From positions 1-63,633 of the forward strand of contig JBFMDM010000001.1 of assembly GCA_040753835.1 (NCBI GenBank): a stretch of DNA of 63,633 nt. The letters are read 5' to 3'. Shown here one piece after another: positions 1 through 63,633 of the stretch (position 1 is its first letter; every line of letters starts with the position of its first letter). A program made the translations under genes and the position numbers. The notes under the pieces were generated by a model. That model saw only the letters and a list, made by a program, of their open reading frames with translations, was not told the DNA's origin and did not search any database. This DNA comes from Planctomycetota bacterium. Its GTDB lineage: Bacteria > Planctomycetota > MHYJ01 > JACQXL01.

Positions 1-377
1 TCGTATTCGGGACTTTGCTGACCGGACTGGGCTCGGCTGATGTGCTTTACTTAACAGACATCAGCGCGGATATCCCTTACACTTCCTTTGACCTGTCGGC
101 CTGGATTCCGGCGCAGGCAAAGGCAGTGATTCTGCAACTGGGAATTTTTAACCAGTCATTTGCCAATGGCCGGGCGTTCTTCAGGGTGCGGACTAACACG
201 GACCAGCGCGATGCCCTTGGGGTCGGCGTTGTCCCGGGCGCCAGTTCGCAGGTGGTAAATCAGGGGATTGTGCCGCTAACCAGCGCGAGAAGCATAGAGT
301 ATGCTCTCGAAAGTGTAGGAGGTCCCTGGTCGGCGACCTTGACGCTGTGGGTGACGGTGGTGGGATATATAGTATGA
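1..377 (+). CDS. 3' part of a B-family fibre-like protein gene (5' end off-window); conserved ~120-aa C-terminal domain
   Basis: Frame 3 is open from base 3. VFGTLLTGLGSADVLYLTDISADIPYT...GGPWSATLTLWVTVVGYIV aligns almost residue-for-residue with the C-termini of 27063-27929 and 59465-60439. Confidence 0.8.
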   Translation, partial: VFGTLLTGLGSADVLYLTDISADIPYTSFDLSAWIPAQAKAVILQLGIFNQSFANGRAFFRVRTNTDQRDALGVGVVPGASSQVVNQGIVPLTSARSIEYALESVGGPWSATLTLWVTVVGYIV

Positions 378-2347: not shown

Positions 2348-2435
2348 GGAAACCACAGATTACTCCCGACATTCGTCGGGATAACTCGCAGTAACTTACT
2401 TCGTGCGAACTGCGAGTAAACAGATTTCGCAGATT
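2348..2435. repeat. Left arm of a perfect 88-bp inverted repeat
   Basis: Compared base by base, its reverse complement equals 3885-3972. The arm contains two internal hairpins (CCCGAC-attc-GTCGGG and ACTCGCAG...CTGCGAGT). Confidence 0.95.
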
Positions 2436-3884: not shown

Positions 3885-3972
3885 AATCTGCGAAATCTGT
3901 TTACTCGCAGTTCGCACGAAGTAAGTTACTGCGAGTTATCCCGACGAATGTCGGGAGTAATCTGTGGTTTCC
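3885..3972. repeat. Right arm of the perfect 88-bp inverted repeat
   Basis: Exact reverse complement of 2348-2435. Confidence 0.95.
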
Positions 3973-4056
3973 CGTCCGTGGCGCCGCTTCTGGCGAGCCC
4001 CGCCCTTCGGGGCGTGAGTCCGCCCTTTGGGGTTCCTCCCACTGGAACCCGGTGGG

Positions 4057-11928: not shown

Positions 11929-12023
11929 CCCCGCACATAAGATTTATTAAGCGTTTATAACGGCTGATAAATACTTGATTCAAACCATCTGCATAATTGG
12001 TTATACAAATATTATGTGCGGGG
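11929..12023. mobile_element. 95-bp CACATAA-MITE copy
   Basis: Termini are ccccgcacataa (11929-11940) and ttatgtgcgggg (12012-12023). The interior is nearly identical to 21483-21577. Confidence 0.85.
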
Positions 12024-12111
12024 TTTTCCTGTTATTATATTTGACCTTTATTGATATTTGTTTATACCTATAACAACAGGCAGATAAACAACTTTAACGA
12101 AAGGAGTTTTT

Positions 12112-15539: not shown

Positions 15540-15685
15540 TATAAAACTCCTCTTAGAGCCATCTTGAGCGCAGCGAATTACTGGCTCTTAGACCCCGCCA
15601 TATAGCGGGGTATTCCTTATAAATATCGTAAGCTGGTTTTGCTGATTTAGCAGATTAAATATGTCGGCTTAATCCGCCTTCTCCG

Positions 15686-21369: not shown

Positions 21370-21387
21370 AGCAATTGGGTTCTTAAC

Positions 21388-21686
21388 CCGCATTATTCAT
21401 AAATTTTTATACAATTATGTTGAAAGCCATTCCATAGTTGTTATATGGTGCGGGTAATCCAGCACATAACCTCTACTGCTTGCCCCGCACATAAGGTTTA
21501 TTAAGCATTTATGATGGCTAATAAATAACTTCCTCAAATCATCTGCATAATTGGTCATACAAATATTATGTGCGGGGTGAAGGCTACCCAAGTTGAAGGT
21601 TATGTGCTGGGCTACTTTATTGTATAGGCACAAACATCTAATACACTTTGTTACCATTTTTAGCATTGTATGAATAATCCAGATTA
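21388..21686. repeat. ~300-bp composite repeat (termini GCATTATTCATA.../...TATGAATAATCCAGATTA) between gcvPA and gcvH, with nested elements
   Basis: It shares its ends with 45075-45293 and 46002-46209. It contains the hairpin element 21459-21610 (CCAGCACATAAC.../...GTTATGTGCTGG), which is itself split by the 95-bp MITE at 21483-21577. Confidence 0.8.
21483..21577. mobile_element. 95-bp CACATAA-MITE copy nested in another repeat
   Basis: Termini are ccccgcacataa and ttatgtgcgggg. The interior matches 11929-12023 with few substitutions. Confidence 0.85.
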
Positions 21687-22076
21687 GTGGCCCGCGGATT
21701 CCGTCTCGCAGAGTTTCTCATACGCCTCCTTGGTCAGGAGGTTCTTGAGTTCTGCGCTGTCGGACAATTTAATCTTAACCATCCATCCGGCATTGAAAGG
21801 GTCGGTGCTGACCAGGTTAAGGTTGGAGGTAATCGGGTCATTGGCTTCAACAACCTCGCCGCTTAAGGGGCTGTTGATGTCCACCACGGTCTTGACCGAT
21901 TCTATTTCGCCCATCGGCTCGCCCTGCTTTACGGTTGATTTCACCTTGGGCAGGTTGATGAAAATCAGGTCGCTCAACTGCTGGGCCGCGAAGTCCGTGA
22001 TGCCGATGGTGGCGACGTGGCCTTCCACGTTGGCCCATTCATGCGTCTGCGAGAAATATAACTCTGCCATATACAC
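21684..22076 (-). CDS. gcvH: Glycine cleavage system H protein
   Basis: YFSQTHEWANVEG..ATIGITDFAAQQL and the lipoyl-Lys motif GEIESVKTVVDI. Confidence 0.9.
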   Translation of the reverse strand: MYMAELYFSQTHEWANVEGHVATIGITDFAAQQLSDLIFINLPKVKSTVKQGEPMGEIESVKTVVDINSPLSGEVVEANDPITSNLNLVSTDPFNAGWMVKIKLSDSAELKNLLTKEAYEKLCETESAGH

Positions 22077-27062: not shown

Positions 27063-27929
27063 TTAGACAATGTATCCGACGACAGTGATATAGAGTGTAA
27101 GCGTTCCAACCCATGGCCCACCCACGGACTCCAAAGCATACTCAATCGTCCTCGGACCTGTGCCAACTACCAGCGGAACAATCCCCTGATTAGCCACCTG
27201 TGAATTCGCGCCCGGAATCAAACCCAAGCCGAGCGCATCGCGCTGGTCAGTGTTAGTTCTCACCCTGAAGAACGCCCGGCCTGTGGCAAACGACTGGTTG
27301 AAGATTCCCAGTTGCAGAATCACTGCCTTGGCCTGCGCCGGAATCCAGGGACTCAAATCAAAGACCGTGTAGGGAATATCCGCGCTGATGTCGGTCAGGT
27401 ACAGCGCCTCTACCGAAGGCGTCAGGAACGACATCCGGTCCCCACCGCCCACTCCGGGCGCTAACTTCTCGGCCGTGACTGCTCCATTCTGTATTTCACC
27501 TGTGCCGATGGCATTGTTAGCGATTTTCCCTTGCGTGATTGTATTTGTGGCAATCTTGGCATTGGTCACTGCGCCATCCGCAATCTTGAGCGCTGTTACC
27601 GCGCCGCTGGGCAGTTTATCGCCGGTCACCGCGCCATTGGCAATCTTATCGGCGCTTACCGCGTCGGTTGCCAGTTTGGTGTTGGTCACCGAACCGTCCA
27701 TCAGCGGAATCACCGAGACATCGCCGCCTAATTTGGCCAGTGTAACCGCGCCGTCCGCAATATCCTCGGTCCGGACTTGGCCCGGAGCGATATCCACTGA
27801 CTTGATGGTCTCGTCCTTGATTTTCTCCGAGGTGACTGCTTCGTTGGCAATCTTCTCCTCGGTTACCGCGCCCTCAACGATAGCAGGCGTCGTAACTTTA
27901 CCGTCAAAATATTTTGGTCTATATGTCAT
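27063..27929 (-). CDS. B-family protein, copy B1: ~14 eleven-residue repeats + GGGDR hinge + conserved C-terminal domain
   Basis: SD AAGGGGGTGA lies 5-6 nt before the ATG at 27929 (the track start at 27938 is GTG). Repeats look like GAVT.EKIA./DGAVTNAKIA. The C-terminus matches 1-377 and 59465-59830. Confidence 0.8.
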   Translation of the reverse strand: MTYRPKYFDGKVTTPAIVEGAVTEEKIANEAVTSEKIKDETIKSVDIAPGQVRTEDIADGAVTLAKLGGDVSVIPLMDGSVTNTKLATDAVSADKIANGAVTGDKLPSGAVTALKIADGAVTNAKIATNTITQGKIANNAIGTGEIQNGAVTAEKLAPGVGGGDRMSFLTPSVEALYLTDISADIPYTVFDLSPWIPAQAKAVILQLGIFNQSFATGRAFFRVRTNTDQRDALGLGLIPGANSQVANQGIVPLVVGTGPRTIEYALESVGGPWVGTLTLYITVVGYIV

Positions 27930-27987
27930 ATTTATCACCCCCTTTGTTATTCTGAATAAATGTTATCAAAAGGAGGTCGCCCAGCCC

Positions 27988-28004
27988 CCCGACGTTACGT
28001 CGGG
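27988..28004 (-). promoter_or_regulatory. Intercistronic stem-loop between A1 and B1
   Basis: CCCGACG-tta-CGTCGGG (7-bp stem), with no U-tract. Confidence 0.4.
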
Positions 28005-28030
28005 AGGCCGGGACTCTCCTTAACAACTCT

Positions 28031-28837
28031 TTACGGGGTTGTCAGTCCGGTCTGTATCCAGAGATACAGCAAGCCGCCGGCGTCCTGTGCCCAGACACAG
28101 AAGCATTTGTCAGATGCCGGTGTGGTCACAAAGACGTCGCACTTGGCCGGGTCGCGCATACCGTTCAGGAGTTCGGTATTGACGAGGTTCTCCTCCTGAA
28201 GCGCCTCGGGCTTAAAATCCTGGTTGATGACCATCAATCCGCCCTGAATGATTCTCTGCTGAACCGCGGCCTTAAGAGCCACTCTTTGCCTGGACTTGGC
28301 GATGTCGTAAGGCATTCCATCGGCAAAGTCGCCGGATGAAATCCAGCCCTGCGCGCGTTCGTCGCCGACCAGATAAAAGGCCGCAATCGGCGCCACGCCG
28401 CGTCCGCGGATCCTATCACCGGTCAGCCGGAGTGTCTTAGCCATCACCTTTAGCGCCCAGCGGTCCTTGGCATTGTCCACCCGCGCCTTGAAATCCCTGG
28501 CCACCACACCGTCCTTGGTCGCGAAGACGTCATTTATCTTCTCGTTCCATTTGCTGTATGCGGTAACTATGTTCTTGGCGTGAGTCCCTCTGATGCCGGA
28601 GTCCGTACGGTCGCTCTTGGAAATAAAGCCCGGCGGAACATAAGGGCCGTAGCCCTTAGTAGACGGCGTGGCTATATCCTTGATGAATGTTGCATCATCG
28701 GGAATCTTGGCCTGCCTGCGGTCGTTCATTATCTCCGCGGCCCGTTTCAAACCCTCAGCCCAGCGGTCCGGCATATCGCCGGCCGGCTCTGCGCTTTCAG
28801 GCACATAGAGTTTTAACTCAAAATGCTTGGTAAACAT
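28031..28837 (-). CDS. A-family protein, copy A1 (268 aa, soluble, unknown function)
   Basis: SD GGGAGGTG lies 7 nt before the ATG at 28837. It is a paralog of 60644-61438 (shared blocks AEIMNDRR/AETINNRR, LRLTGDRIRGRG/LRFTGSRARGRQ, DPAK...C.VW). Confidence 0.8.
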   Translation of the reverse strand: MFTKHFELKLYVPESAEPAGDMPDRWAEGLKRAAEIMNDRRQAKIPDDATFIKDIATPSTKGYGPYVPPGFISKSDRTDSGIRGTHAKNIVTAYSKWNEKINDVFATKDGVVARDFKARVDNAKDRWALKVMAKTLRLTGDRIRGRGVAPIAAFYLVGDERAQGWISSGDFADGMPYDIAKSRQRVALKAAVQQRIIQGGLMVINQDFKPEALQEENLVNTELLNGMRDPAKCDVFVTTPASDKCFCVWAQDAGGLLYLWIQTGLTTP

Positions 28838-29565
28838 TGTTCTCACCTCCCTTGTCGTTTTGTTAGAGGGTTACGAGGTTGTCCTCCGAACTTGCGCCGG
28901 AGAAGGGCTCAAGAGAAAGGTCGATATCCTGAAGAACTATGACAATCGCCACTCCAGCAACCGCCATAGGGAGTGAATCGCCAGGAGCATCCTGCCTTCT
29001 CTCTCCTCCACCCTCTCATTGCAGGACCGGCGGTATTTTGGGGCGAAAACCAGCAAAATATGCCGAAAAAATTGCCGCAACTCTTTGTTTGGGCAGGAGA
29101 TAAAATATTTGTTGAAAAAAATGCAAAATTCTTCAAGGGGGTGTTCTTGCGGGTTTTAGCGCCCTTTAACCTTAAGAATAATCAGGCAGGGCTATACCTG
29201 TATTCAAGGAGGTACAGATTCTTGGTAAGAGGAGAAGATGTTGTTGATACGATAGGTACGGGGAGTTAACAAGAGAGAAACCGGCTCTTGTTTTAAGAAA
29301 TGTATGCTTTTATTTAGAGAGGTATCGGGGGGCGTTTAAGGGGAAGCAGGTTGCCGATCAAACAGATATGCGCTTTTATTTAAAGGGGAGCGGGCAGTTA
29401 TCCAAAGAAGTATCGGGGGTTGATTAGAGAGATATCTGTTTTTATCCAGAGAAGGTGTGGGGCCTATTTAGGTCGTAGGGGGTATCTACCCGGTAGGGAT
29501 GGGGTATTGGGTAGATTAGCAAGGGGTATTCCCCCAGTCCCCCTGCGGATAAATTGGTTTTAAGA

Positions 29566-29617: not shown

Positions 29618-30604
29618 ATGATAAACAAGATTCTAGAAATCAAGAATTTCAAGTCCATCAAACACCTGAAACTGGATTGCAAGAAGATAAACATCTTCAT
29701 CGGCAAGCCCAATACAGGCAAGTCCAATATTTTGGAAAGCGTGGGATTTTTCTCGCTTCTTCACGGTGCTGACCACTTTAAAAAATGGATTAGGGTTCAA
29801 AATACAACTAATTTGTTTTATGATAATGACCTATCCCAACAAATATCAATAAATATTGATAATTCCAGGGGGACTCTGAAATTTAACAACGGTTCATTTG
29901 ATGGCGAGATAAGAATGCGTATAGGAGACCAAAGACAGAGTTTTATTTTTCATACTTATTATGATCCCCGTCTTCAGTGGCAAAAAGGTTGGAATACTAA
30001 AGCACCGTTTAAATTCTATAAGTTTAACATTCAAGATTCATTTCAGAGTAGTGATGCGAATTTTTTACACCCGCCGGATGGTGATAACCTATTGACTATA
30101 TTATTAACAAGTAAATCATTGAAAAAGGCAGCGGCAGATATATTCAGTGAATATAAGTTAAGAATTGTATTAAAACCACAGGAGCGTCAAATAGAAGTTC
30201 AGAAAGAAGTTGATGATGTTGTGATTTCCTGGCCATATTCGCTCGTCTCAGATACATTACAAAGGATTGTCTTTCATTTAGCGGCTATTGAAACAAACAC
30301 GGATTCGGTGATAATATTAGAAGAGCCGGAATCCCACAGCTTCCCGTATTACACGACATTTCTGGCTGAACGGATTGCCTTAGACAAGACCAACCAGTAT
30401 TTTATTGCTACGCACAACCCGTATTTCCTATTTTCTATTCTGGAAAAAGCACCTAAAGAAGATGTTGGGATATTCATTACCTATTTTGAGGACTACCAGA
30501 CCAAGGTTAGACCAATTAAGGATGAAGAAATGGCCCAGGTTTTTGATTTGGATGATGACATCTTCCTTAATTTGGATAAATTTATAAAATCCGGGAAAGA
30601 ATAA
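29618..30604 (+). CDS. ABC/SMC-like ATPase of the AAA_15/AAA_21 type (AbiLi/AriA/OLD-N-terminal-like)
   Basis: N-terminal ILEIKNFKSIKHLKL, Walker A GKPNTGKSN, signature-like SDTLQRIV, Walker B VIILEEPE and H-loop ATHNP. The region is AT-rich. Confidence 0.8.
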   Translation: MINKILEIKNFKSIKHLKLDCKKINIFIGKPNTGKSNILESVGFFSLLHGADHFKKWIRVQNTTNLFYDNDLSQQISINIDNSRGTLKFNNGSFDGEIRMRIGDQRQSFIFHTYYDPRLQWQKGWNTKAPFKFYKFNIQDSFQSSDANFLHPPDGDNLLTILLTSKSLKKAAADIFSEYKLRIVLKPQERQIEVQKEVDDVVISWPYSLVSDTLQRIVFHLAAIETNTDSVIILEEPESHSFPYYTTFLAERIALDKTNQYFIATHNPYFLFSILEKAPKEDVGIFITYFEDYQTKVRPIKDEEMAQVFDLDDDIFLNLDKFIKSGKE

Positions 30605-30607
30605 ACA

Positions 30608-31102
30608 ATGCGATATGTAGAATGCTACAAGGACGAAACACTGGCAAAAAGATTAGGCATACCAAAACAACAGATTAGACACAGCCCCGGTAAAACCAAA
30701 CTTTGTTATGGGTTAGAAAATACAACAAACTCTAAGGGAATGATAGATGAAGAACCCTGGAGCAGAGGGAACGAGGAAATTCCTTATATAAAGAAACTAA
30801 AAACATCAAACCCACAGGGATGGAATAACTTACAGCACAGCATCAGGGTTTTAGATGACAAGGACAAGCAAAACAAATTAATTGTTTTATGCCCAAATCT
30901 GGAAGGATGGATTTTAGAGGCGGCCAAAGAGGTTAAAATAGACGTTACGAAATCACCGTATGGATTACCCGATGATAAAGACGAATTGCATAAAGTATTA
31001 GGCACTAAGACCAGAAACGAAAACTACGAAAAACTCCTGGACGCAATGCTAAAAGCCAAATCCCCGATGCTTAAAACACTGGAGCAACTCCTAAAAAAGT
31101 AA
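30608..31102 (+). CDS. Small protein, possibly Toprim-like (RloB/DUF4276/DUF4435-like partner of the ATPase)
   Basis: It starts 3 nt after the ATPase stop. An N-terminal acidic strand (YVECYKDE), GMIDEEP, and LIVLCPNLEGWILE resemble the E...DxD...(P.lE.Wl) layout of OLD-type Toprim partners. This was read by eye only. Confidence 0.35.
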   Translation: MRYVECYKDETLAKRLGIPKQQIRHSPGKTKLCYGLENTTNSKGMIDEEPWSRGNEEIPYIKKLKTSNPQGWNNLQHSIRVLDDKDKQNKLIVLCPNLEGWILEAAKEVKIDVTKSPYGLPDDKDELHKVLGTKTRNENYEKLLDAMLKAKSPMLKTLEQLLKK

Positions 31103-31106
31103 ACCG

Positions 31107-31610
31107 ATGGATAAGTTAAGAATCAAGAAAGGATTCCTTAGATTTCCAGTTATTTCACACGGTGCGGAGTTTCTCGTCCAGGGATATTTAATGCGCCGGA
31201 ATATCCTGACCTACAAAGCACCGCCTAATAATGAGGGCTACGATTTAATATGCATTCATCCCGACCCAAGGATAAAAGGCAAACAGGTAAGGATTCAGGT
31301 AAAAAGTCGTTACCAAACTGATTGTGGTTTTTGGTTCCCTGTTAAGGAAAAAACGTTTAGGGGCTTTGACTTCTTAATAGCGGTATTCCTAAATGTGGGA
31401 TATTTTTATAAGAGAGGGGTGTCTTCCGTAAACGGACAACAGATACCAGAGTTTTATACTTTCCCTGTGAGTTTTATTAGGCGACACCACGATAAAAAAT
31501 CATCTTGGCATTTGGTAAATTTAGAAGGCGTCAATATTGAAAAATATAAAAATGAAAGAGGTTTTGAACTAATCGCCAAAGCACTTAATATACCTTATCC
31601 ATCAAGATAA
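31107..31610 (+). CDS. PD-(D/E)XK nuclease-fold protein (Hjc/restriction-endonuclease-like)
   Basis: It starts 4 nt after the previous stop. The motif order is GAEFLVQGYL ... GYDLICI ... VRIQVKSR, which is E ... D ... (E/Q)xK. Confidence 0.5.
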   Translation: MDKLRIKKGFLRFPVISHGAEFLVQGYLMRRNILTYKAPPNNEGYDLICIHPDPRIKGKQVRIQVKSRYQTDCGFWFPVKEKTFRGFDFLIAVFLNVGYFYKRGVSSVNGQQIPEFYTFPVSFIRRHHDKKSSWHLVNLEGVNIEKYKNERGFELIAKALNIPYPSR

Positions 31611-31643
31611 TTATTACACCAATTAGCAATAAGGAGAATGTTT

Positions 31644-32402
31644 ATGCGCAAAGGATTCTTCATCCGCATTGGCACGCGCACCACGAGCCGCAAAAAATCA
31701 GCCATCCAGGCCGCCCTGGAGCGCCGGATGTTAGACCGGCACCTGGACTACGTCATCGCCAAATACCACCCGGCCCTGCTTTATTCCGTCCGGGAAATCG
31801 TCCTGAACCAATACGGCGCGGGCAAGATTATCGGATTTTCGCCCGAGGAGTTCGTGGATAACTGCATCAAGGACGCCTTTAGCCGCATCAGGGAATACGA
31901 CCCGAAATACAAGTTCCGGACCTTCCTGTGCAAGATGATAGTCATCCCGGCCCTGGTAAACCTCCTGCGCGAGGCAAAGAAGGAGCGCACGGCCATAGAG
32001 GCCTATGTGGCCGAGAAGAAAACCATCCAGGATTTGGAGAGCGAATTTGAGACCGCGCTCAGATACGCCCTGACCAAACAACTCTTCTTTGACGCCCTGA
32101 TGCGCTACAAGAACGAAGAGCCGATTCGCTACGAGGTCTTTTGTATGTCCTTCTATGAGAAATTATCCTATCCCAAGATTAAGGACGAACTGGGCAAACT
32201 CTACCCGCATCTGCAGGTGGAATCCAGCCGGTATGTCCGAACGCTCCACGAGCAGGCCATTAAAGGGCTGAAACACTACCTGCGCCAGACCTACCATGGC
32301 CGGAAGTATTTTGACAAAGACCTGATAATGGACGATAAATTCCTCAAACGGCTAAGGGCGGAAACAACCAAGGCGAAGGCAACCACAGATGGACGCAGAT
32401 AA
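31644..32402 (+). CDS. ECF-like sigma-70 family factor
   Basis: Region 2-like CIKDAFSRIREYDPKYKFRTFLCKMIVIPALVNLLRE and region 4-like RYEVFCMSFYEKLSYPKIKDELG...YVRTLHEQAIKGLKHYLRQ. The SD AAGGAGA touches the first ATG (31638), so the second ATG (31644) is preferred. Confidence 0.65.
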   Translation: MRKGFFIRIGTRTTSRKKSAIQAALERRMLDRHLDYVIAKYHPALLYSVREIVLNQYGAGKIIGFSPEEFVDNCIKDAFSRIREYDPKYKFRTFLCKMIVIPALVNLLREAKKERTAIEAYVAEKKTIQDLESEFETALRYALTKQLFFDALMRYKNEEPIRYEVFCMSFYEKLSYPKIKDELGKLYPHLQVESSRYVRTLHEQAIKGLKHYLRQTYHGRKYFDKDLIMDDKFLKRLRAETTKAKATTDGRR

Positions 32403-35431: not shown

Positions 35432-35691
35432 CTTTTTATCCGGTTAGGGATATAATAGAATTTAACGAAAAGAATGCCCGCCTGCGTCCCCCTGGGACTA
35501 CGGCGCGGCGTCGCCTTTTGAGGCGAACCTTCCGCCTTAGGCGCCGCCTCTGGCGAGCATCGCCCTTCGGGGCGGGAGGTCTAACTGGCCTCAAAGGAAA
35601 GTCCCGACAAAAACTGTCGGGATAAGATACTGTAACGGACTTTCCCGAAAGCATTCTGGGAATTCCTAACAGTATCTAAAAGGAGATTTAT

Positions 35692-37721: not shown

Positions 37722-37850
37722 AGACATTCTATAAAGAATCCCGCCCAAAAGGGCGAGTTTCGCTATAGGCGACAAGGAAAATCCCGCCATTTGGCGTGGT
37801 CTAAGTCGCTGTAAGGGCTAAAGCCCAACAGCGGCTAAGAGGAGTTACCG

Positions 37851-45062: not shown

Positions 45063-45074
45063 CGCAATAGATAG

Positions 45075-45293
45075 CCCGCATTATTCATAGATTTTTATAC
45101 AATTATGCTTAAGACCAACCCCGATATAATATTGGGATGCGGGTCATGCCAGAGGCAGATCCGTCTTCGGCTGGACAATCCCGCACCCCGCTCCAATCAA
45201 ATAGGGCGTGATGCGGGGCGAGATTATGGTATAAGCACAAATACCGAAAACAAACCGTTATCATTTTTAGCATCGTATGAATAATCCAAGATA
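45075..45293. repeat. Composite repeat, ATTATTCATA family, copy 2
   Basis: It starts cccgcattattcatagatttttatacaattatg and ends catcgtatgaataatccaagata. The interior differs from copies 1 and 3. Confidence 0.75.
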
Positions 45294-45409
45294 GTATTAC
45301 AGAACTCCGGCAAACGCAAGATTTATCCCGATTTAATATTTCTACGTTGCAGATTCCGGCAAAACCGCTATTTTACACGGAAACCAGGATTATAAAAATC
45401 CCCCTTGAT

Positions 45410-45560: not shown

Positions 45561-46001
45561 ATGAGAGGAATAATAATAACCACAGCGCTATTGGTGGTCA
45601 TCCTGGCACCGGGCTGGTATCTGATGAGCCAGAATACGGACCGGGACGGCGGGGCCGAGCCGGAATACGTCTGGAAACCGGTCCAGGCCAGGATTACCCA
45701 TTACAGTTGCAATGAAAAGACCGAGCGCAGATGGAAGGGCCGGACCTCGCTAAACAAATCCGCCCGCAACAATGACGGCGTGGCCGTTGACCCGAAGATA
45801 ATTCCCTACGGCTCCATTATCCACATTCCGGGCATCGGCACCCGCATCGCAGACGACACCGGCGGCAAATGCCGGCAATACGGCCGCAAGAATCAGATAC
45901 TCATTGACGTGCGCTGGAACGACAAGACCCGCAAGGAACTTTTTGATATGGGCGCAAACTGGCAGACCGTCTATGTCCTCCAAAAGGTCAGCAGCGATTA
46001 G
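45561..46001 (+). CDS. 3D-domain (MltA/RlpA-like double-psi beta-barrel) protein with N-terminal anchor
   Basis: ITHYS...GVAVDPKIIPYGSIIHIPGIG.RIADDTGG...ILIDV. Confidence 0.7.
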   Translation: MRGIIITTALLVVILAPGWYLMSQNTDRDGGAEPEYVWKPVQARITHYSCNEKTERRWKGRTSLNKSARNNDGVAVDPKIIPYGSIIHIPGIGTRIADDTGGKCRQYGRKNQILIDVRWNDKTRKELFDMGANWQTVYVLQKVSSD

Positions 46002-46209
46002 CCCGCATTATTCATAAATTTTTATGCAATTATGCTAAAGGCCGTGCATAGTTATTATATTATGCGGGCAATCCCGCACATAACTTCTGCTTTGGGCTAC
46101 CTAAGTTGAAGGTTATGTGCGGGGCTGGGCTATAAGATAAGTATAAAGATATAAGACGTCTTGGTATTATCTTAAGGGTAATATGGATAATCCAGATTAG
46201 CCATAAGGA
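46002..46209. repeat. Composite repeat, ATTATTCATA family, copy 3, containing a 52-bp CACATAA hairpin element (46073-46124)
   Basis: It starts cccgcattattcataaatttttatgcaattatg and ends atggataatccagatta. Its 3' end supplies the last 9 codons and the stop of prmC. Confidence 0.8.
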
Positions 46210-59464: not shown

Positions 59465-60439
59465 CTACATTATATAACCGACGACTGTAATGTATAGCGT
59501 CAATGTAGCAGACCATGGACCGCCCACGGACTCCAACGCGTACTCAATCGTCCTCGGTCCTGTTCCCACCACCAGCGGCACTATCCCCTGATTGGCCACC
59601 TGCGAATTCGCGCCCGGAATCAAACCCAAGCCGAGCGCGTCGCGCTGGTCAGTATTAGTCCGGACCCTGAAGAACGCCCGGCCTGTGGCAAATGCCTGGT
59701 TGAACATCCCCAGTTGCAGAATCACGGCCTTGGCCTGCGCCGGAATCCAGGGACTCAAATCAAAGGCCGTATAAGGAATATCCGCGGAGATGCCGGTCAG
59801 GTAAAGCACATCAGCCGAACCCAGTCCGGTGAGTAATGTCCCGAAGGTAAAGCGGTCTCCGCCTCCGATACCAGCCGCCAATTTCTCCTGCGTCACCGCG
59901 CCGTTCTGGATTTTCTCCGTACTGACACTGCCTACTGCCAACTCACTACTGCCTACTGCTCCAGATTGTATTTCGCTGGAGCCAATCGCATTAGCCGCAA
60001 TCTTTGAGGCCGTAACTGCGTTATTCGCTAACTTGGCATTGGTTACGGCTCCATCCACCAAATCCTCTGTTCTGACGCTCTGGTCTGCGACCTTTTCTCT
60101 GGTAATTGCGCCGTTGGCAATCTTCTCTGTGGTTATTGCCCCGGCCACTATCTTGCCTGAGGTAATTGAGCCGTCTGCAATCTTTTCGTTAGTCACGCTG
60201 GCCGATTGCAACTTATCATTGGTTACTGCCTTACTGGCTATTTTTACGGCGCTAACTGAACCGTCTACTAATTCATCAGTTCCGACCACACCATCGGCAA
60301 TCTTGCGCCTGGTTACCACACCGTCCTTGATATGTTTTTCCTCAATAGCGTCATTGGCTATTTTCTCGCCCGTGGCCGATTGCGGGCTTAGGTGTTTTGT
60401 TTTGATTTCGTTGAGTCGGTCGTACAAAGTCCTTGCCAT
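59465..60439 (-). CDS. B-family protein, copy B3: ~16 eleven-residue repeats + GGGDR hinge + conserved C-terminal domain
   Basis: SD AAAGGAG. Repeats look like DGSITSGKIVAGAITTEKIANGAITREKVAD. The C-terminal ~120 aa are near-identical to 1-377 and 27063-27420. Confidence 0.85.
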   Translation of the reverse strand: MARTLYDRLNEIKTKHLSPQSATGEKIANDAIEEKHIKDGVVTRRKIADGVVGTDELVDGSVSAVKIASKAVTNDKLQSASVTNEKIADGSITSGKIVAGAITTEKIANGAITREKVADQSVRTEDLVDGAVTNAKLANNAVTASKIAANAIGSSEIQSGAVGSSELAVGSVSTEKIQNGAVTQEKLAAGIGGGDRFTFGTLLTGLGSADVLYLTGISADIPYTAFDLSPWIPAQAKAVILQLGMFNQAFATGRAFFRVRTNTDQRDALGLGLIPGANSQVANQGIVPLVVGTGPRTIEYALESVGGPWSATLTLYITVVGYIM

Positions 60440-60569: not shown

Positions 60570-60588
60570 AAATTATCCTTTTTCCTCT

Positions 60589-60625
60589 GCCCTAACCCTC
60601 TCCCCCTTAGGGGAGAGGGCAGGGC
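60589..60625 (-). promoter_or_regulatory. Strong stem-loop immediately downstream of A2
   Basis: GCCCT-aa-CCCTCTCCCC-ctta-GGGGAGAGGG-c-AGGGC. Confidence 0.5.
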
Positions 60626-60643
60626 GAGGGGTTAATCTGTGGT

Positions 60644-61438
60644 CTACACCTTCCAGATTTGTGTCTGGAGTTTGAGTTGGCCGTCCTCCACATACCATAC
60701 ACAGTAGGACTTATCCGCTGTAATGGCCGCCACCCAATCCGTTGCCTTGGCTGGGTCTGACATTCTTTCCAACGCATCTTTAATCCTGCCGTTATGCTTT
60801 GTCAGCATCGCCGAATCAAACCCGGATTCGTTGATGATGACGCCGGTCTGAATTAAAAGTTGGGTTAAGGCCGCTCTCAGGGTTGCCCGCAAGCCGTTTG
60901 AGGAGATGTCGTATGGACCGCCATCCAGTACTTGTGAGCCATCGGGCAGCCGCTGGGTTGCCTGGATATCGCCTGTCAGCCAATAGCCCATTACCGAGGC
61001 CACCTGCCTGCCTCTGGCGCGCGAGCCGGTGAAACGCAGTGTCCCACGGGCCGCCTCTTCGTCCCAGTTTGACTGCTTTGCGGTAACCGCATCCTTGAAC
61101 CGCTTGGCATAGACGCCGTCCACCTCCTCAAAGGCGTGGTCCAGGCCGTCGTTATACTTGTCGTATGACCTGAGAATCTTTCCGCGATGCATAGTATAGA
61201 TATCCGCGGCATCACGATCGCCCTGTGTTGAGGTCGGGAAATTAACCCGGTTCTTGAATTTGTCCGCAGCCGGAGTGGCAATAACCTGGCCGAAAGTCCC
61301 GTCGTTGCCTATCCGCTCCTTACGCCGGTTGTTGATGGTCTCGGCGTTGTTAATCAGGCCGCTGACCCGCTTTTCGGACATATCCGAATGTGGCGTAATC
61401 AGTGCCGCCACCGGCACTATAAGTTTTGTGCGTATCAT
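60644..61438 (-). CDS. A-family protein, copy A2 (264 aa, soluble, unknown function)
   Basis: SD AAAGGA; a paralog of 28031-28837. Confidence 0.8.
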   Translation of the reverse strand: MIRTKLIVPVAALITPHSDMSEKRVSGLINNAETINNRRKERIGNDGTFGQVIATPAADKFKNRVNFPTSTQGDRDAADIYTMHRGKILRSYDKYNDGLDHAFEEVDGVYAKRFKDAVTAKQSNWDEEAARGTLRFTGSRARGRQVASVMGYWLTGDIQATQRLPDGSQVLDGGPYDISSNGLRATLRAALTQLLIQTGVIINESGFDSAMLTKHNGRIKDALERMSDPAKATDWVAAITADKSYCVWYVEDGQLKLQTQIWKV

Positions 61439-61628
61439 AGTTTTATCCTTTCTTAGGGACTGTTAGACCGAAGGAAGTTATCCGCCAAAGGCGGATCCGC
61501 CTCCGGAGGACAGTCCCTTAGACCCGCCTCTGGCGGGTATTGTAATCAGCCGGTGGGCTAGCTGCGTCTTGCCCCCCGATGGTAATTCGGGGTGACGCCG
61601 ATAGCCAGCCGCACCGGGCTGGTAAAGT

Positions 61629-61721
61629 TTACTGTTTGGTTTTTTCCTTCAGAATCTCCAGGACAATCTCCACGACCATCCGGATGATTTTCCTCCAGAA
61701 ATCGGAAATCATTTTGGCCAT
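61629..61721 (-). CDS. Possible 30-aa amphipathic peptide upstream of A2
   Basis: Strong SD AAGGAGGG lies 5 nt before the ATG. The peptide is MAKMISDFWRKIIRMVVEIVLEILKEKTKQ. It is not in the ORF track because it is too short. Confidence 0.35.
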   Translation of the reverse strand: MAKMISDFWRKIIRMVVEIVLEILKEKTKQ

Positions 61722-62095: not shown

Positions 62096-62830
62096 CTATT
62101 TTTTACCCTGTCTGAATTTAACCCATACCACCGGATACATCCTCCAGATGTTCTTCCTGCTTATTTCCTTGGGCGGATATTCCGGGTTTGTGGAAATCAG
62201 GGTCGCTTTGCCGCCCTGGATTTTCACCAGTTTTACAGCGGCTTCATATTCCTTGTTGATGACCATAGCCAGCGAGCCGGACCTTGCCTCCTTGCGCGGG
62301 TCAATGACCGCATAAGAGCCGTCCGGGATGGTCGGCTCCAAACTGTCGCCCTTGATTTGCACCGCGAATATCTCCTTATAGGGCAGGTCAAAAGGCCGGG
62401 TGATTTTCTCCCAGCCCTCAATGGTCAGCAGGGCATCCGGCTCGCAGGACATCGCCTCGCCGGCCGCGGCCAGCCGCACCACCGGGATTCCGTCGTATTC
62501 CCTGGTCAGGGGATGCGGCACGTCGAATATTTTTATCTCATTGCCGTTTTTGTCGCCTTTGGAAAAGGAGGAGAGGAGTTTTTGTTTTATGCTTTGCTCG
62601 GTCTCGGCAGGAATCTCCTGCCTGGGCCAGGGTGTCTTGGCGGACTCCAGAATTACCAGGCTCATCTCTAATTGTTGTCGCAACTGGTCAGCGGGTGCGT
62701 CGGCCGAGGCGTATTTCTCCACCCATTCATCAACAGAAGGCCTCCGGCCGCTGCGGCACGCATTGTTGAATCGTTCCACAATCCGGCCAATCTTGATGGC
62801 CCTTTCCTTTTCCGTTCCTCGCTCTTTCAT
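62096..62830 (-). CDS. LexA-type S24 autopeptidase-domain protein without a recognisable HTH
   Basis: C-terminal AAGE...IKGDSLEPTIPDG...AVKLVK...LISTNPEYPP carries the Ser/Lys dyad motifs. SD AGAGGAG lies before the ATG at 62830. The N-terminus carries ERFNNACRSGRRPSVDEWVEKY. Confidence 0.75.
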   Translation of the reverse strand: MKERGTEKERAIKIGRIVERFNNACRSGRRPSVDEWVEKYASADAPADQLRQQLEMSLVILESAKTPWPRQEIPAETEQSIKQKLLSSFSKGDKNGNEIKIFDVPHPLTREYDGIPVVRLAAAGEAMSCEPDALLTIEGWEKITRPFDLPYKEIFAVQIKGDSLEPTIPDGSYAVIDPRKEARSGSLAMVINKEYEAAVKLVKIQGGKATLISTNPEYPPKEISRKNIWRMYPVVWVKFRQGKK

Positions 62831-62930
62831 AATCCTCACTCCTCTTGCCGGCTGTTAATCCGTCAGGATCTTACAGCCAGTTATCCCGACAGTTTTTATC
62901 GGGAGCCTCTCTTTTCCTTCCTTATCATAA

Positions 62931-63596
62931 TTATTCCAATTCTCTGCCTGTAGCGGCGTCCAGGCACAGCCGCCGGGCCAAACGGTCTCTTAAGGCCTGT
63001 CGGGCCTGGCTCAGTCGCCAGTAAATCTCGGTCTCGGCAATCCCGCAAAGCCGCGAAATATCCTCTGCCGAACAATTCTGCCAGTAGGCCAGATAAATTA
63101 CCCACGAAGACATCCTCGGCAGTTTGAGAATCTCCTCCTGGATAATCTCCCTGCTCTCCCGGTTGACCAGCCGCTCCAGGATACCGGGCTTCTCGCATTT
63201 TTCAGGAATGGTCTGGCCCAATGAAACCGGATTGTCGTCCTCATCCTGCCCGACCTCCTTGTCAAGCGAGGCGAACGAGAATTTTTGCTGTATGAAAATG
63301 GCCGAATAATGTCCGATGATGCCGTGCGGCGCGCCGAAGCCCAGGTAGGCGCGGCCTAAAAGCGCCTTGACTGACTTGCCCTTGAAATTCCCGATGGCCT
63401 TGATAGCCCTTTGCCAGACCTCGGAGCAGAAATCGGCGACATCGGCCGCTCGGTTCGGCGGAATCAAATGCCTTGCTTCATCAGCCACATATTTCTTATA
63501 TCTCTCATATACATTTATAACAGCGTCATCTTTTTTCTTTGGGTCTTCCTTAATCAGCCGGATTAACTCCGCATCTGAATATTTCTTGTCAGGCAT
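62931..63596 (-). CDS. ECF-like sigma-70 family factor
   Basis: Region 2-like FCSEVWQRAIKAIGNFKG and region 4-like VIYLAYWQNCSAEDISRLCGIAETEIYWRLSQARQALRDRL. It has the same AAGGAG-ATGTTTATG start context as 31638/31644. Confidence 0.65.
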   Translation of the reverse strand: MPDKKYSDAELIRLIKEDPKKKDDAVINVYERYKKYVADEARHLIPPNRAADVADFCSEVWQRAIKAIGNFKGKSVKALLGRAYLGFGAPHGIIGHYSAIFIQQKFSFASLDKEVGQDEDDNPVSLGQTIPEKCEKPGILERLVNRESREIIQEEILKLPRMSSWVIYLAYWQNCSAEDISRLCGIAETEIYWRLSQARQALRDRLARRLCLDAATGRELE

Positions 63597-63633
63597 AAAC
63601 ATCTCCTTGTATAATCGGCGCCATTCGTTTGAA

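What the first reader, a model, noticed from the sequence alone, without database searches (positions are those of the whole stretch)
27063..28837. Recurrent two-gene module of unknown function (A: ~265-aa soluble protein; B: hendecad-repeat fibre with conserved C-terminal domain), copy 1
Two co-oriented minus-strand genes with strong SDs make up this copy: A1 (268 aa, no signal peptide) and B1 (288 aa). B1 consists of about 14 degenerate 11-residue repeats with consensus roughly A-V-T-x-x-K-I-A-x-G-x. A 33-nt periodicity is visible in the DNA at 27470-27900. The repeats are followed by a GGGDR hinge and a ~120-aa C-terminal domain.
The same A+B pair recurs at 59465-61438, and a third B 3' end lies at 1-377. 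A1 and A2 share only blocks (AEIMNDRR/AETINNRR, LRLTGDRIRGRGVAPIAAFYLVGD/LRFTGSRARGRQVASVMGYWLTGD, DPAK...C.VW). The B C-terminal domains, by contrast, are near-identical even at DNA level, so divergence is discordant inside one module. In both complete copies a GC-rich stem-loop separates A from B (27988-28004 and 60589-60625). Such a layout often sets a high major-subunit to minor-fibre expression ratio.
I recognise neither family. No terminase, portal, integrase or tail genes accompany them. My working hypothesis is a self-assembling shell or lattice protein (A) decorated by a trimeric-fibre-like protein (B). That would be a domesticated capsid-like particle, nanocompartment or surface fibril.
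Basis: partly seen in the sequence, partly recalled or inferred. Interest (0 to 1): 0.8.

Follow-up and report, generated by a model that had tools for sequence, protein, structure and literature searches.

The report
Phage-like fibre with novel-fold partner
An uncultured groundwater Planctomycete carries many copies of a sigma-factor-linked gene pair: a phage-style fibre with a lectin-like tip kept the same in every copy, and a partner protein whose predicted fold matches nothing in the libraries searched, function untested.

Summary
The two-gene module is real and recurs, but some details of the finding are wrong. B's repeats are 10 residues / 30 nt, not 11 / 33. The B tips are 75-84% identical at DNA level, not near-identical. 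The third B fragment is on the + strand.

B is a phage-type fibre. It has a short N-terminal peptide specific to its A partner, about 14 decad repeats shared with phage tail fibres (PHROG 892, E 1e-32), a Gly hinge, and a confident jelly-roll tip closest to trimeric TNF-like lectins and phage/Bdellovibrio fibre tips.

A belongs to an unannotated family of 225 clusters, with every named source a Planctomycetota/Brocadiia MAG. Its model is confident (pLDDT 93.6) and alpha-rich, with no match in PDB, BFVD, Pfam, PHROGs or phage genomes. It is therefore not HK97, jelly-roll or encapsulin. Its conserved residues look structural, not catalytic.

A and B are one unit. B follows A in 29 of 43 loci, and A precedes B in 11 of 11 loci found from B. 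A natural A-fibre fusion exists. The fuller operon is ECF sigma/anti-sigma <-> Zn-ribbon, exported serine protease, 30-aa micro-ORF, A, hairpin, B.

B's N-terminus co-varies with A. B's tip instead tracks the genome (83% vs 32% identity) through mosaic gene conversion. Function remains unknown. My best reading is a fibre docked on a novel base protein.

The parts
28031..28837 (-). A1: 268-aa soluble protein of an unannotated family with a fold unmatched in PDB and BFVD (class 1; N-terminus MFTKHFELKLYVP)
   Evidence: ORF and SD. 104 close homologues, every named source Planctomycetota. 225 clusters in the exhaustive search. AF2 pLDDT 93.6 and no Foldseek match.
27962..28027 (-). Two-tier GC-rich stem-loop between A1 and B1, followed by UUUU
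   Evidence: dG -44.8 kcal/mol, z -6.0. A similar GCGTGAGTGG-[GC hairpin]-CCGACCACGCTTTA element sits in the A-B spacer of about a dozen loci, by eye on the extracted spacers. It does not pass the simple terminator scan.
27063..27929 (-). B1: 288-aa fibre protein (N-terminal peptide, decad shaft, hinge, tip)
   Evidence: ORF. PHROG tail-fibre families, phrog_892 E 2e-32. 615 homologues at E<=1e-10.
27459..27875 (-). B1 shaft: about 14 repeats of 10 residues (G-A-V-T-x-x-K-I-A-D), 30-nt DNA period
   Evidence: Autocorrelation z 13.3 at lag 10. TRF period 30/60. 30-nt spacing of direct repeats.
27063..27437 (-). B1 C-terminal tip domain (124 aa plus stop): 8-stranded jelly-roll, TNF-like lectin type
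   Evidence: AF2 pLDDT 89.4. Foldseek best hits BC2L-C-Nt 6zzw E 7e-4, lambda tail tip 8xcg, Bd2133 8ond, PLTL 9ib9, PRD1 P5 1yq5.
60644..61438 (-). A2: 264-aa paralogue of A1 (34-35% identity)
   Evidence: A-family HMM E 3e-94.
60584..60631 (-). GC-rich stem-loop after A2 (no U-run)
   Evidence: dG -43.2 kcal/mol, z -6.3 for the 77-nt spacer.
59465..60439 (-). B2: 324-aa fibre with a different N-terminus and shaft but the same tip type as B1
   Evidence: Tip 89% aa and 84% nt identical to B1; shaft 45% aa.
3..377 (+). B3: 3' end (tip domain) of a third B gene, cut by the contig end, inverted relative to B1 and B2
   Evidence: Inverted repeats I1 and I2, 82-83% complementary. The gene is annotated as partial, AB1599_00005.
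61446..61539 (-). Structured 5' leader with UAAC junctions directly upstream of the A2 SD. It is a lineage-wide leader motif, not specific to the module.
   Evidence: CM hit 58 bits, E 4e-13. Closing stem covaries in 6 of 7 pairs. Fold dG -58.8, z -6.5.
61629..61721 (-). Conserved 30-aa micro-ORF MAKMISDFWRKIIRMVVEIVLEILKEKTKQ with a strong SD, upstream of A2
   Evidence: Homologous micro-ORFs lie upstream of A in L018, L025, L030, L033, L038, L044 and L048; in L018, L025, L030 and L038 a protease gene precedes them. Coordinates and SD verified.
62096..62839 (-). S24 (LexA/CI-type) serine peptidase-like protein, occupying the protease slot of copy 2
   Evidence: Pfam Peptidase_S24 E 2.6e-18. 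The same S24, micro-ORF, A order occurs in L033.
62931..63602 (-). ECF-type sigma factor upstream of copy 2
   Evidence: Sigma70_r4_2 E 9e-8 and Sigma70_r2 E 1.4e-4, the latter just below Pfam's cut-off. An ECF sigma sits next to the module in at least 9 other loci.

Best explanation
WHAT THE LOCUS IS
The locus is one copy of a lineage-restricted, multi-copy operon of uncultured groundwater/subsurface Planctomycetota (Brocadiia-related MAGs). The full form is [ZAS anti-sigma <- ECF sigma] <-> [Zn-ribbon protein -> exported trypsin-like (or S24) serine protease -> ~30-aa micro-ORF -> A -> strong hairpin -> B].

SHOWN
- B is built like a phage tail fibre. It has a ~15-aa N-terminal peptide, about 14 decad repeats of the kind found in phage tail-fibre shafts, a Gly-rich hinge and a jelly-roll tip of the TNF-like lectin type.
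- A is an alpha-rich protein whose predicted fold has no detectable relative. Its family-wide conservation is structural.
- A and B are inherited as a unit.
- B's N-terminus co-varies with A.
- The tip is shared by all paralogues of a genome through mosaic gene conversion, and it differs sharply between genomes.

INFERRED
- B forms a trimer whose N-terminal peptide docks onto A. A is therefore the proximal base or adaptor, playing the part that a penton base or baseplate protein plays for a viral fibre.
- The tip is distal and binds a lineage-specific ligand, most likely a glycan.
- The hairpin after A lowers read-through or stabilises the A message, so A is made in excess over B.
- The neighbouring ECF sigma switches each copy on in response to its own signal.
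- The protease matures A, B or the regulatory proteins.

UNKNOWN
Where the complex ends up (cell surface, released, or intracellular) is not known. What A attaches to is not known either.
For: ADJACENCY
- B follows A in 29 of 43 assessable loci from at least 8 MAGs and other metagenome contigs.
- Starting from B's N-terminus, A is directly upstream in 11 of 11 assessable metagenome loci.

PHYSICAL LINK
- P0187 is a natural fusion of A (residues 1-261) to a fibre-like C-terminus. It sits in a locus with three tandem A paralogues followed by an Mtd_N phage-fibre protein.
- In that fusion A is N-terminal to the fibre, which is the proximal end in viral fibres.

CO-VARIATION
- A identity correlates with identity of B's first 25 residues (Mantel rho 0.45, p 0.001) but not with the tip (rho -0.04).
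- Two clear classes exist: MxFxKKFELKLYVP pairs with MTYRRRYFDG, and MSTxVSGLxLxVP pairs with MSLKPLEVKT.

FIBRE NATURE OF B
- phrog_892 tail fibre, E 2e-32 and 1e-36.
- The decads are shared with long phage fibres in unrelated metagenomes.
- One homologue carries collagen repeats ahead of the same tip.
- The tip is a jelly-roll close to trimeric TNF-like lectins and fibre tips (BC2L-C-Nt is described as a TNF-like trimeric lectin in PMC3164656).

A IS STRUCTURAL
Only W26, G140, G174, P176 and N217 are at least 85% conserved across 110 family members.

TIP HOMOGENISATION
- Tip identity is 0.83 within a genome against 0.32 between genomes; for A the values are 0.41 against 0.42.
- Third-codon-position identity is 0.6-0.95 in patches of the tip against about 0.3 upstream.

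REGULATION AND SPACER
- Sigma and ZAS anti-sigma lie next to the operon.
- A stable, conserved hairpin sits between A and B.
Against: - No A-B contact was computed or measured, because no multimer prediction was available.
- Neither A nor B has a signal peptide, so a surface location needs an unknown export route or lysis.
- A occurs alone in 14 loci. All three distant family members examined lack a fibre gene. A therefore has a function that does not need B.
- The Foldseek matches for the tip are weak (TM 0.45-0.5, E about 1e-3), so 'lectin' is an analogy.
- Trimerisation of B is inferred from relatives only.
- The hairpins are not canonical terminators.
- Sigma control of the operon is inferred from position only. 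Copy 1 in the window has no sigma, protease or Zn-ribbon gene next to it.
- Gene conversion alone could produce the within-genome tip identity without any selection for a common ligand.
Confidence: 0.5

Rival explanations
1. Shell or lattice with fibres. A self-assembles into a capsid-like particle, nanocompartment or 2-D lattice built on a new fold. B trimers decorate it, and the protease matures the shell as in viral proheads.
For: - A's conservation is structural.
- A is placed before a hairpin that could give A in excess over B.
- A serine protease gene immediately precedes A. In three clusters it is fused to A like a viral protease-capsid polyprotein.
- Fibres with TNF-like heads sit on the vertices of PRD1 (1yq5 among the hits).
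- Three tandem A paralogues occur in L008.
Against: - There is no structural similarity to HK97, jelly-roll, encapsulin or any capsid in PDB or BFVD.
- No cargo, packaging or nucleic-acid-binding genes lie nearby.
- A is absent from all catalogued viruses searched.
- Oligomerisation was not tested.
Confidence: 0.12
2. Targeted bacteriocin or effector. B is the receptor-binding targeting subunit with a strain-specific tip. A is the payload, for example a membrane-active helical protein. The protease activates it, and the micro-ORF or Zn-ribbon protein serves release or immunity. Expression is stress-induced through ECF sigma or an S24 LexA-like protein, as for colicins and pyocins.
For: - The tip evolves fast between genomes (32% identity) as in tailocin and phage receptor-binding proteins.
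- An S24 LexA/CI-like peptidase sits upstream of copy 2 and of L033.
- A small amphipathic basic-tailed micro-ORF could act in release.
- A is helical, and its best (insignificant) PDB sequence hit is the colicin E1 channel domain at E 0.12.
- Several modules sit next to defence or mobile genes: OLD/Gabija-like ATPase, PemK, transposases.
Against: - A has no hydrophobic helical hairpin (max KD19 1.1), no toxin domain and no fold match to pore formers.
- No obvious immunity gene is present.
- The tip is identical among paralogues while the presumed payload varies only moderately.
- Solo A genes are embedded among housekeeping genes.
Confidence: 0.12
3. Leftover host-recognition modules of an unknown virus or mobile element of this lineage. 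The many copies are remnants or satellites, and all share the tip because all must bind the same host's receptor.
For: - The mosaic pattern (conserved proximal part, exchangeable host-specific tip) is typical of phage fibre genes.
- The L008 context has an Mtd_N fibre, a PLD nuclease with a PHROG hit and many small ORFs.
- Contigs carrying the family are mostly short; repeat-induced assembly breaks are one possible cause.
Against: - Flanks are ordinary housekeeping genes within 0.1-1 kb at every locus, and they differ between loci.
- There are no integrase, replication, packaging or lysis genes and no terminal repeats.
- The genes are intact, with dN/dS about 0.1 in the tip.
- Each module has its own sigma/anti-sigma pair, a cellular style of control.
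- A is not found in IMG/VR or INPHARED.
Confidence: 0.1
4. A is an assembly chaperone or regulator for B, not part of the final structure.
For: - Strict adjacency and co-variation with part of B.
- Phage fibres often need dedicated chaperones.
Against: - Known fibre chaperones are encoded downstream and act on the C-terminal tip. Here the co-variation is with the N-terminus, and the tip does not track A.
- The A-fibre fusion keeps A as a permanent domain.
- Many A genes have no B.
- A is placed where higher, not lower, expression is expected.
Confidence: 0.06

Closest known systems
Phage tail fibres with decad 'xAVTxxKIAD' shaft repeats (PHROG 892 and related; Pfam DUF5907)
   Same: B's shaft matches these profiles strongly (E 1e-32 to 1e-36). 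The same repeats occur in long fibre proteins on unrelated metagenome contigs. The modular layout is the same: proximal N-terminus, repeat shaft, exchangeable tip.
   Different: B is short (about 290-400 aa) and encoded in cellular loci without any virion genes. It is always paired with A, which no catalogued phage has. The DUF5907 hit is below Pfam's threshold.
Bdellovibrio bacteriovorus MAT (mosaic adhesive trimer) fibre superfamily (PMC10769870)
   Same: Both are cell-encoded, phage-like fibres present as many paralogues per genome: 21 in Bdellovibrio, at least 13 B genes in this MAG. The tip of Bd2133 is among the structural neighbours of B's tip (8ond).
   Different: MAT proteins have a signal peptide, a conserved ~130-aa N-terminal domain and tips that vary within the genome. 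B has no signal peptide and only ~15 residues before the repeats. Its N-terminus varies with its partner, and its tip is constant within the genome. MAT fibres have no A-like partner gene.
Trimeric TNF-like jelly-roll heads: BC2L-C N-terminal lectin and PLTL, PRD1 spike P5, Chlamydia Pgp3, lambda tail tip
   Same: The predicted 8-strand jelly-roll of B's tip aligns best to these (E 7e-4 to 5e-3, probability about 1.0). Like PRD1 P5, one homologue combines collagen repeats with the head.
   Different: Similarity is weak (TM 0.45-0.5, 9-18% identity) and there is no sequence-level match to any PDB chain. Sugar binding and trimerisation are untested.
Viral vertex complexes (adenovirus penton base + fibre; PRD1 P31 + P5)
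   Same: The working model is the same logic: a short N-terminal fibre peptide docks on a base protein encoded next to it, and the base is made in excess.
   Different: A has no similarity to any penton base or jelly-roll protein. No capsid is present. This is an analogy only.
ECF sigma / ZAS anti-sigma controlled operons with a membrane serine protease
   Same: A Sigma70_r2/r4 protein with an H-x3-C-x2-C anti-sigma lies divergent from the operon. A signal-anchored trypsin-like protease is the first large gene.
   Different: The output genes (A, B, micro-ORF, Zn-ribbon) are not known ECF regulon members. Neither regulation nor protease targets have been tested.

Membership tests
Phage tail-fibre shaft repeat proteins (PHROG 892 / DUF5907 type) | Significant profile match of the repeat region | tested here: met
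   phrog_892 E 2.1e-32 (B1) and 1.4e-36 (B2), plus more than 15 other tail-fibre PHROGs. Pfam DUF5907 reaches only E 0.016-0.03, below its cut-off.
Phage tail-fibre shaft repeat proteins (PHROG 892 / DUF5907 type) | Encoded within a virion or tail gene cluster | tested here: not met
   Flanks are housekeeping or regulatory genes in the window and in more than 40 loci.
Phage tail-fibre shaft repeat proteins (PHROG 892 / DUF5907 type) | Homotrimeric fibre | not testable with these tools
   Only monomer prediction was available.
TNF/C1q-like trimeric jelly-roll (lectin) domain | Jelly-roll beta-sandwich fold similar to family members | tested here: inconclusive
   The model has 8 strands and pLDDT 89.4. 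Best Foldseek hits are BC2L-C-Nt, PLTL, 4-1BBL, Pgp3 and PRD1 P5, but with TM 0.35-0.5 and E about 1e-3. Generic viral jelly-rolls score similarly.
TNF/C1q-like trimeric jelly-roll (lectin) domain | Trimer with a ligand site at the subunit interface; carbohydrate binding | not testable with these tools
   No multimer modelling or binding assay was possible.
HK97-fold capsid / encapsulin (for A) | HK97 fold (A- and P-domains, E-loop) or a Linocin_M18 profile match | tested here: not met
   No Pfam hit. A is mostly helical with 3-4 strands. Zero Foldseek matches at E<=1e-3 in PDB or BFVD.
Single/double jelly-roll capsid proteins (for A) | Eight-stranded jelly-roll core | tested here: not met
   The secondary structure of the confident model is alpha-dominated. 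No fold match.
Bdellovibrio MAT fibre superfamily | Signal peptide followed by a conserved ~130-aa beta-rich N-terminal domain | tested here: not met
   B starts MTYRPKYFDG and enters the repeats by residue ~19. No hydrophobic N-terminus. The MAT definition is from PMC10769870.
Bdellovibrio MAT fibre superfamily | Tips diversified among paralogues of one genome | tested here: not met
   Tips are 83% identical within a genome against 32% between genomes.
Polymorphic toxin / CDI-like systems | Variable C-terminal toxin domain followed by a cognate immunity gene | tested here: not met
   The C-terminal domain is a conserved jelly-roll shared by all paralogues. No small gene follows B.
Protease-activated pore formers (bacterial gasdermin type; colicin channel domain) for A | Gasdermin or colicin-channel fold; hydrophobic hairpin | tested here: not met
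   No Foldseek match. Colicin E1 reaches only E 0.12 by profile. Max KD19 is 1.1.
Known anti-phage defence systems (PADLOC) | Profile match of the components | tested here: not met
   A gives none. B's repeats hit PD-Lambda-5_A at E 1e-8, and only over the repeats. PD-lambda-5 is an RM+Abi methyltransferase system (PMC9519451).
ECF sigma / anti-sigma regulated operon | Sigma70_r2 and r4 domains, with an adjacent anti-sigma carrying the HxxxCxxC (ZAS) motif | tested here: met
   Window sigma: r4_2 at 32.1 bits passes Pfam's cut-off, while r2 at 22.0 bits is just under its 24-bit cut-off. L004 sigma. The ZAS motif is seen in the genes downstream of sigma in L001, L004, L011, L018, L021 and L025. 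Control of A and B by the sigma factor was not tested.

The most novel reading that the evidence does not exclude
A, B, the exported protease and the micro-ORF together build a previously unknown kind of bacterial nanostructure. A novel-fold protein self-assembles or anchors in the envelope and carries domesticated phage fibres. The gene-converted, lineage-specific lectin tip then mediates self/kin or partner-cell recognition, or targeted delivery of A. The structure would be deployed from up to a dozen independently ECF-switched copies per genome in very small groundwater Planctomycetota.
Probability: 0.25. Interest if true: 0.85.

Novelty: new variant of a known kind. Interest (0 to 1): 0.62.

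Why it matters
- It defines a sizeable protein family (225 clusters) with a confidently predicted fold that has no relative in PDB or BFVD. It also ties that family genetically to a recognisable partner, which gives a concrete handle for experiments.
- It adds a second, differently organised example of cells keeping large paralogous sets of phage-type fibres; the first is the Bdellovibrio MAT family. Here the logic is reversed: the tip is constant and the base varies. Each copy has dedicated sigma/anti-sigma control.
- The tip shows a clean case of concerted evolution confined to one domain, useful for studying how recognition specificity is kept uniform within a genome while diverging between lineages.
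- If the complex is a surface or released structure, it would bear on how uncultured, filter-passing groundwater Planctomycetota attach to partners or surfaces.
- If it is a new assembling scaffold, it could be of biotechnological interest.

Tried and rejected
- **Capsid, encapsulin or jelly-roll fold for A:** rejected by the confident model and empty Foldseek results. Profile search against PDB sequences gave only noise: colicin E1 at E 0.12 and GtgE at E>0.3.
- **Pfam, NCBIfam, PHROG and PADLOC for A1, A2 and ten distant members:** nothing.
- **A in phages or viral contigs:** tblastn against 50,697 phages and a pattern scan of IMG/VR were both empty. The same holds for the B tip in phages.
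- **Defence-system reading through PD-Lambda-5_A:** rejected. The match covers only the repeats, and the system is an RM/Abi methyltransferase.
- **Recent gene conversion as the sole reason for tip identity in the window:** overall dS is 0.6-1.2, so the copies are not recent duplicates. The finer scan shows mosaic patches of high third-position identity. I conclude older or ongoing patchy conversion plus purifying selection.
- **The UAAC-junction leader as a module-specific riboswitch:** rejected. The covariance model finds it upstream of many unrelated genes.
- **The 72-aa Cys-rich ORF between A2 and B2 as a Zn-ribbon family member:** not supported (E 0.015, 2 bits).
- **Mobile-cassette boundaries:** no terminal inverted or direct repeats flank either module.
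- **Other copies in this same MAG:** a look-up of P0019 failed because the assembly is not indexed.
- **Literature searches for such a system in Planctomycetota:** nothing found.


Full report
**1. What is in the window**

The window is a 63,633-bp contig of an uncultured Planctomycetota MAG (locus tags AB1599_). At the reported coordinates lie two co-oriented minus-strand genes with strong Shine-Dalgarno sequences. A1 is 28031-28837 (268 aa). B1 is 27063-27929 (288 aa).

A second pair lies at 60644-61438 (A2, 264 aa) and 59465-60439 (B2, 324 aa). The 3' end of a third B gene runs off the contig start at 3-377, on the opposite strand.

A1 and A2 are 34-35% identical. The B C-terminal domains are 84-89% identical in protein and 75-84% in DNA. 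Stable stem-loops separate A from B in both copies: dG -44.8 and -43.2 kcal/mol, z about -6.

Two points of the original description are wrong. First, the B repeat is 10 residues / 30 nt, not 11 / 33. Autocorrelation gives z 13-14 at lags 10 and 20, DNA self-identity is 0.45 at lag 30 against 0.29 at lag 33, TRF reports periods 30/60, and direct repeats are spaced 30 nt apart. Second, the tips are not near-identical at DNA level.

**2. B is a phage-type fibre**

The repeat region matches many tail-fibre PHROGs (phrog_892 at E 2e-32 and 1e-36). The same decads occur inside long fibre proteins on unrelated metagenome contigs, including human gut.

After a GVGGGDR hinge comes a ~124-aa domain. 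With a 62-sequence alignment it is predicted confidently (pLDDT 89.4) as an eight-stranded beta-sandwich. Foldseek places it nearest to the following (E 7e-4 to 5e-3, TM 0.35-0.5):
- the TNF-like trimeric lectin BC2L-C-Nt and the related PLTL
- the lambda tail tip
- the Bdellovibrio Bd2133 fibre tip
- PRD1 spike P5
- Chlamydia Pgp3
- 4-1BB ligand

These matches are weak, so 'TNF-like lectin' is a description of fold type, not a membership claim. One homologue carries collagen repeats in front of the same domain, as trimeric spikes such as PRD1 P5 do. Neither sequence search of the PDB nor tblastn of phage genomes finds the tip.

**3. A is an unannotated family with a fold unmatched in the libraries searched**

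A1 has 104 close homologues. All are hypothetical proteins, and every named source is a Planctomycetota or Brocadiia MAG, with several copies per genome.

An exhaustive profile search of 1.84 billion representatives finds 225 clusters at E<=1e-3. Nearly all are 255-275 aa.

No Pfam, NCBIfam, PHROG or PADLOC model matches A1, A2 or ten distant members.

The AlphaFold model is confident (pLDDT 93.6, pTM 0.79). It is mostly helical, with an N-terminal strand and a C-terminal hairpin. It has no Foldseek match at E<=1e-3 in PDB or BFVD and no significant profile match to PDB sequences.

A is also absent from 50,697 phage genomes and from IMG/VR.

Across 110 diverse members, only W26, G140, G174, P176 and N217 are at least 85% conserved. 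The next tier is Gly, Pro and hydrophobic residues. This is the pattern of a structural or binding protein, not an enzyme.

**4. A and B are one unit inside a larger operon**

Genome and metagenome loci (L001-L053) show B directly downstream of A in 29 of 43 assessable cases.

In the reverse direction, a metagenome scan seeded with B's N-terminus returned 11 assessable loci, all with A directly upstream.

The modal architecture has these parts:
- a Zn-ribbon protein (a CxxC...CxxC pattern read from the alignment)
- a trypsin-like serine protease with an N-terminal signal or anchor (Trypsin_2 E 1.5e-16; KD19 1.7-2.0)
- in at least 8 loci, a conserved ~30-aa micro-ORF
- A, then a conserved two-tier hairpin, then B
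- an ECF sigma factor followed by a ZAS-type anti-sigma, transcribed divergently

In the window, copy 2 has the sigma factor (62931-63602) and an S24 LexA/CI-like peptidase in the protease slot (62096-62839). The same order occurs in L033. Copy 2 also has the micro-ORF (61629-61721), A2 and B2. Copy 1 is a bare A-B pair.

Three clusters are protease-A fusions. One (P0187) is an A-fibre fusion in a locus with three tandem A paralogues followed by an Mtd_N phage-fibre protein.

A also occurs alone in 14 loci. These include all three distant members examined.

Flanking genes are unrelated housekeeping genes at each locus, and no terminal repeats bound the modules.

**5. Two halves of B follow different histories**

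B's first ~25 residues fall into classes that match the class of the adjacent A. MTYRRRYFDG pairs with MxFxKKFELKLYVP. MSLKPLEVKT pairs with MSTxVSGLxLxVP.

Over 21 pairs, A identity correlates with B N-terminal identity (Mantel rho 0.45, p 0.001) but not with tip identity (rho -0.04).

The tip tracks the genome instead. Mean identity is 0.83 between paralogues of one MAG and 0.32 between MAGs (Mantel p 0.0005). For A the values are 0.41 and 0.42.

The tips fall into about five discrete sequence types. The window's MAG has at least 13 B genes, and those whose tips were aligned carry the same type.

Within-genome pairs show patches of 0.6-0.95 identity at third codon positions across the tip and last repeats, against about 0.3 in the N-terminal half. 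Overall dS is 0.6-1.2 with dN/dS about 0.1. I read this as mosaic gene conversion plus purifying selection, with a boundary near the hinge.

**6. Best explanation and its limits**

The fusion puts A at the N-terminal, proximal end of a fibre. The N-terminal co-variation and the strict adjacency add to this. Together they make direct docking of B's N-terminal peptide on A the most economical reading.

Under this reading A acts as a base or adaptor of novel fold, and the jelly-roll tip points away to bind a lineage-specific ligand. The hairpin plausibly makes A more abundant than B.

The sigma/anti-sigma pair plausibly switches each copy. The constant presence of a serine protease suggests a maturation step.

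None of these mechanistic steps was tested. Neither protein has an export signal, so the location of the complex is open. Solo A genes show that A does something without B.

The rivals cannot be excluded: a self-assembling shell, a targeted effector, viral remnants, or a chaperone. They are ranked in the report sections.

**7. Comparison with known systems**

B's shaft is a member of the phage tail-fibre repeat families by profile, but it is not in a virion context.

The closest cellular parallel is the Bdellovibrio MAT fibre superfamily (PMC10769870). B fails the MAT defining features: a signal peptide, a conserved 130-aa N-terminal domain, and tips that vary within the genome. MAT has no A-like partner.

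The penton-base/fibre analogy describes how the complex may work, not what it is.

I found no description of this module in the searchable literature.

**8. Verdict**

The system is a new variant of cell-encoded phage-like fibres. It is coupled to an uncharacterised protein family whose predicted fold has no match in PDB or BFVD, and to a distinctive regulatory and evolutionary architecture. Its function is unknown.

Noticed in passing
window 61446-61539(-), 62838-62905(-), 37781-37845(+), 35601-35686(+), 6250-6308(+), 15546-15611(-), 2363-2426(+), 3894-3957(-); also about 50 sites in loci L001-L049: A structured ~65-95-nt 5' leader ending in the SD: hairpin - CUAA(C/G) - stem 5' half - UAAC - hairpin - CUAACAG stem 3' half - UAAGARAGG. 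The closing stem covaries (6 of 7 pairs compensatory; 91% paired against 68% in shuffles). It sits directly upstream of the start codons of many unrelated genes. It is not in Rfam. It looks like a candidate lineage-wide leader, mRNA-stabilising or translation element.
   Followed up: partly
window 61629-61721(-); L018:5666, L025:3485, L030:5749, L033:4761, L038:450, L044:1019, L048:963: A conserved ~26-34-aa micro-ORF (..MSxFW[RK][RK][IV]IxVIVE[VI][VI]LDYLEKKGKRK) with its own SD, upstream of A. In L018, L025, L030 and L038 a protease gene precedes it; in the window and L033 the S24-like gene does. It forms an amphipathic helix with a basic tail. Its function is unknown; a release, regulatory or leader peptide are possibilities.
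   Followed up: partly
window 29295-29454: Four copies of a ~28-nt direct repeat (AAGAAATGTATGCTTTTATTTAGAGAGG-like), spaced 22-66 nt apart. They lie in the 780-bp divergent intergenic region between A1 and the AAA ATPase gene at 29618. They may be operator sites.
   Followed up: no
window 29618-32402: A low-GC island (41% against about 52%) next to copy 1. It holds an AAA_15/AAA_21 ATPase matching AbiLi, Gabija GajA, PARIS AriA and OLD-type defence ATPases (E 1e-12 to 1e-15), followed by three small genes with no family match. It is a likely defence island.
   Followed up: partly
window 11929-12024 and 21483-21578; similar sequence in L048 upstream of B: A 96-nt REP-like element bounded by CCCCGCACATAA...TTATGTGCGGGG (88% identical copies). 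Further short repeat families lie at 21383-21428 / 45071-45116 / 45998-46043 and at 21582-21687 / 45189-45294 / 46095-46200.
   Followed up: no
window 2492-3628(-) with 2332-2435 / 3885-3988: This gene has a strong 21-nt (7-codon) internal periodicity at 2613-3113. It is flanked by a 104-nt inverted repeat that is 96% complementary, and each arm contains a copy of the UAAC leader motif.
   Followed up: no
window 62096-62839(-) and L033:3749-4447: An S24 (LexA/CI-type) peptidase with a non-HTH N-terminal half sits between the ECF sigma and the micro-ORF/A, in the slot where other loci have the trypsin-like protease. This hints at a self-cleaving regulator or an alternative maturation protease.
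   Followed up: partly
window 60351-60569(-): A 72-aa Cys-rich ORF with a good SD lies between A2 and B2 and overlaps the B2 start by 89 nt. It gives a weak Pfam zf-C3Hc3H hit (E 0.0085) but is not a member of the module's Zn-ribbon family (E 0.015, 2 bits). Whether it is real is undecided.
   Followed up: partly
L008:356-4221 (= L009): Three tandem A paralogues, the third fused to a fibre-like C-terminus. They are followed by a 188-aa Mtd_N phage-fibre protein, a PLD-like nuclease (phrog_12711) and many small ORFs. This is the only phage-like or mobile-looking context found for the A family.
   Followed up: partly
upstream regions of A and B in L013, L015, L017, L024, L029 (CACAGATAAACACAGAT); L021, L025, L030, L032, L038, L044 (AATCCGCTTAATCCGCTTAC); L007, window 28850-28880 (TAAC x3-4); L002, L015, L017, L022, L024 (GGGATGTATCCCCCGGGCG...GGGATACC): Several other leader types recur just upstream of the SDs of module genes. 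They are made of short direct repeats or conserved hairpins. Their roles are unknown.
   Followed up: no
L007:6372-7094(-), L019:1-564(-), L031:3-284(-), L034:819-1526(-), L042:3952-4881(-): A second family of ~235-aa proteins (RVGTRTTTRKKSAIQAAL...RHLDYV) with no Pfam hit on record for the one member with gene calls (L007). It lies divergent from A, where other loci have the ECF sigma factor, and may be an alternative regulator.
   Followed up: no
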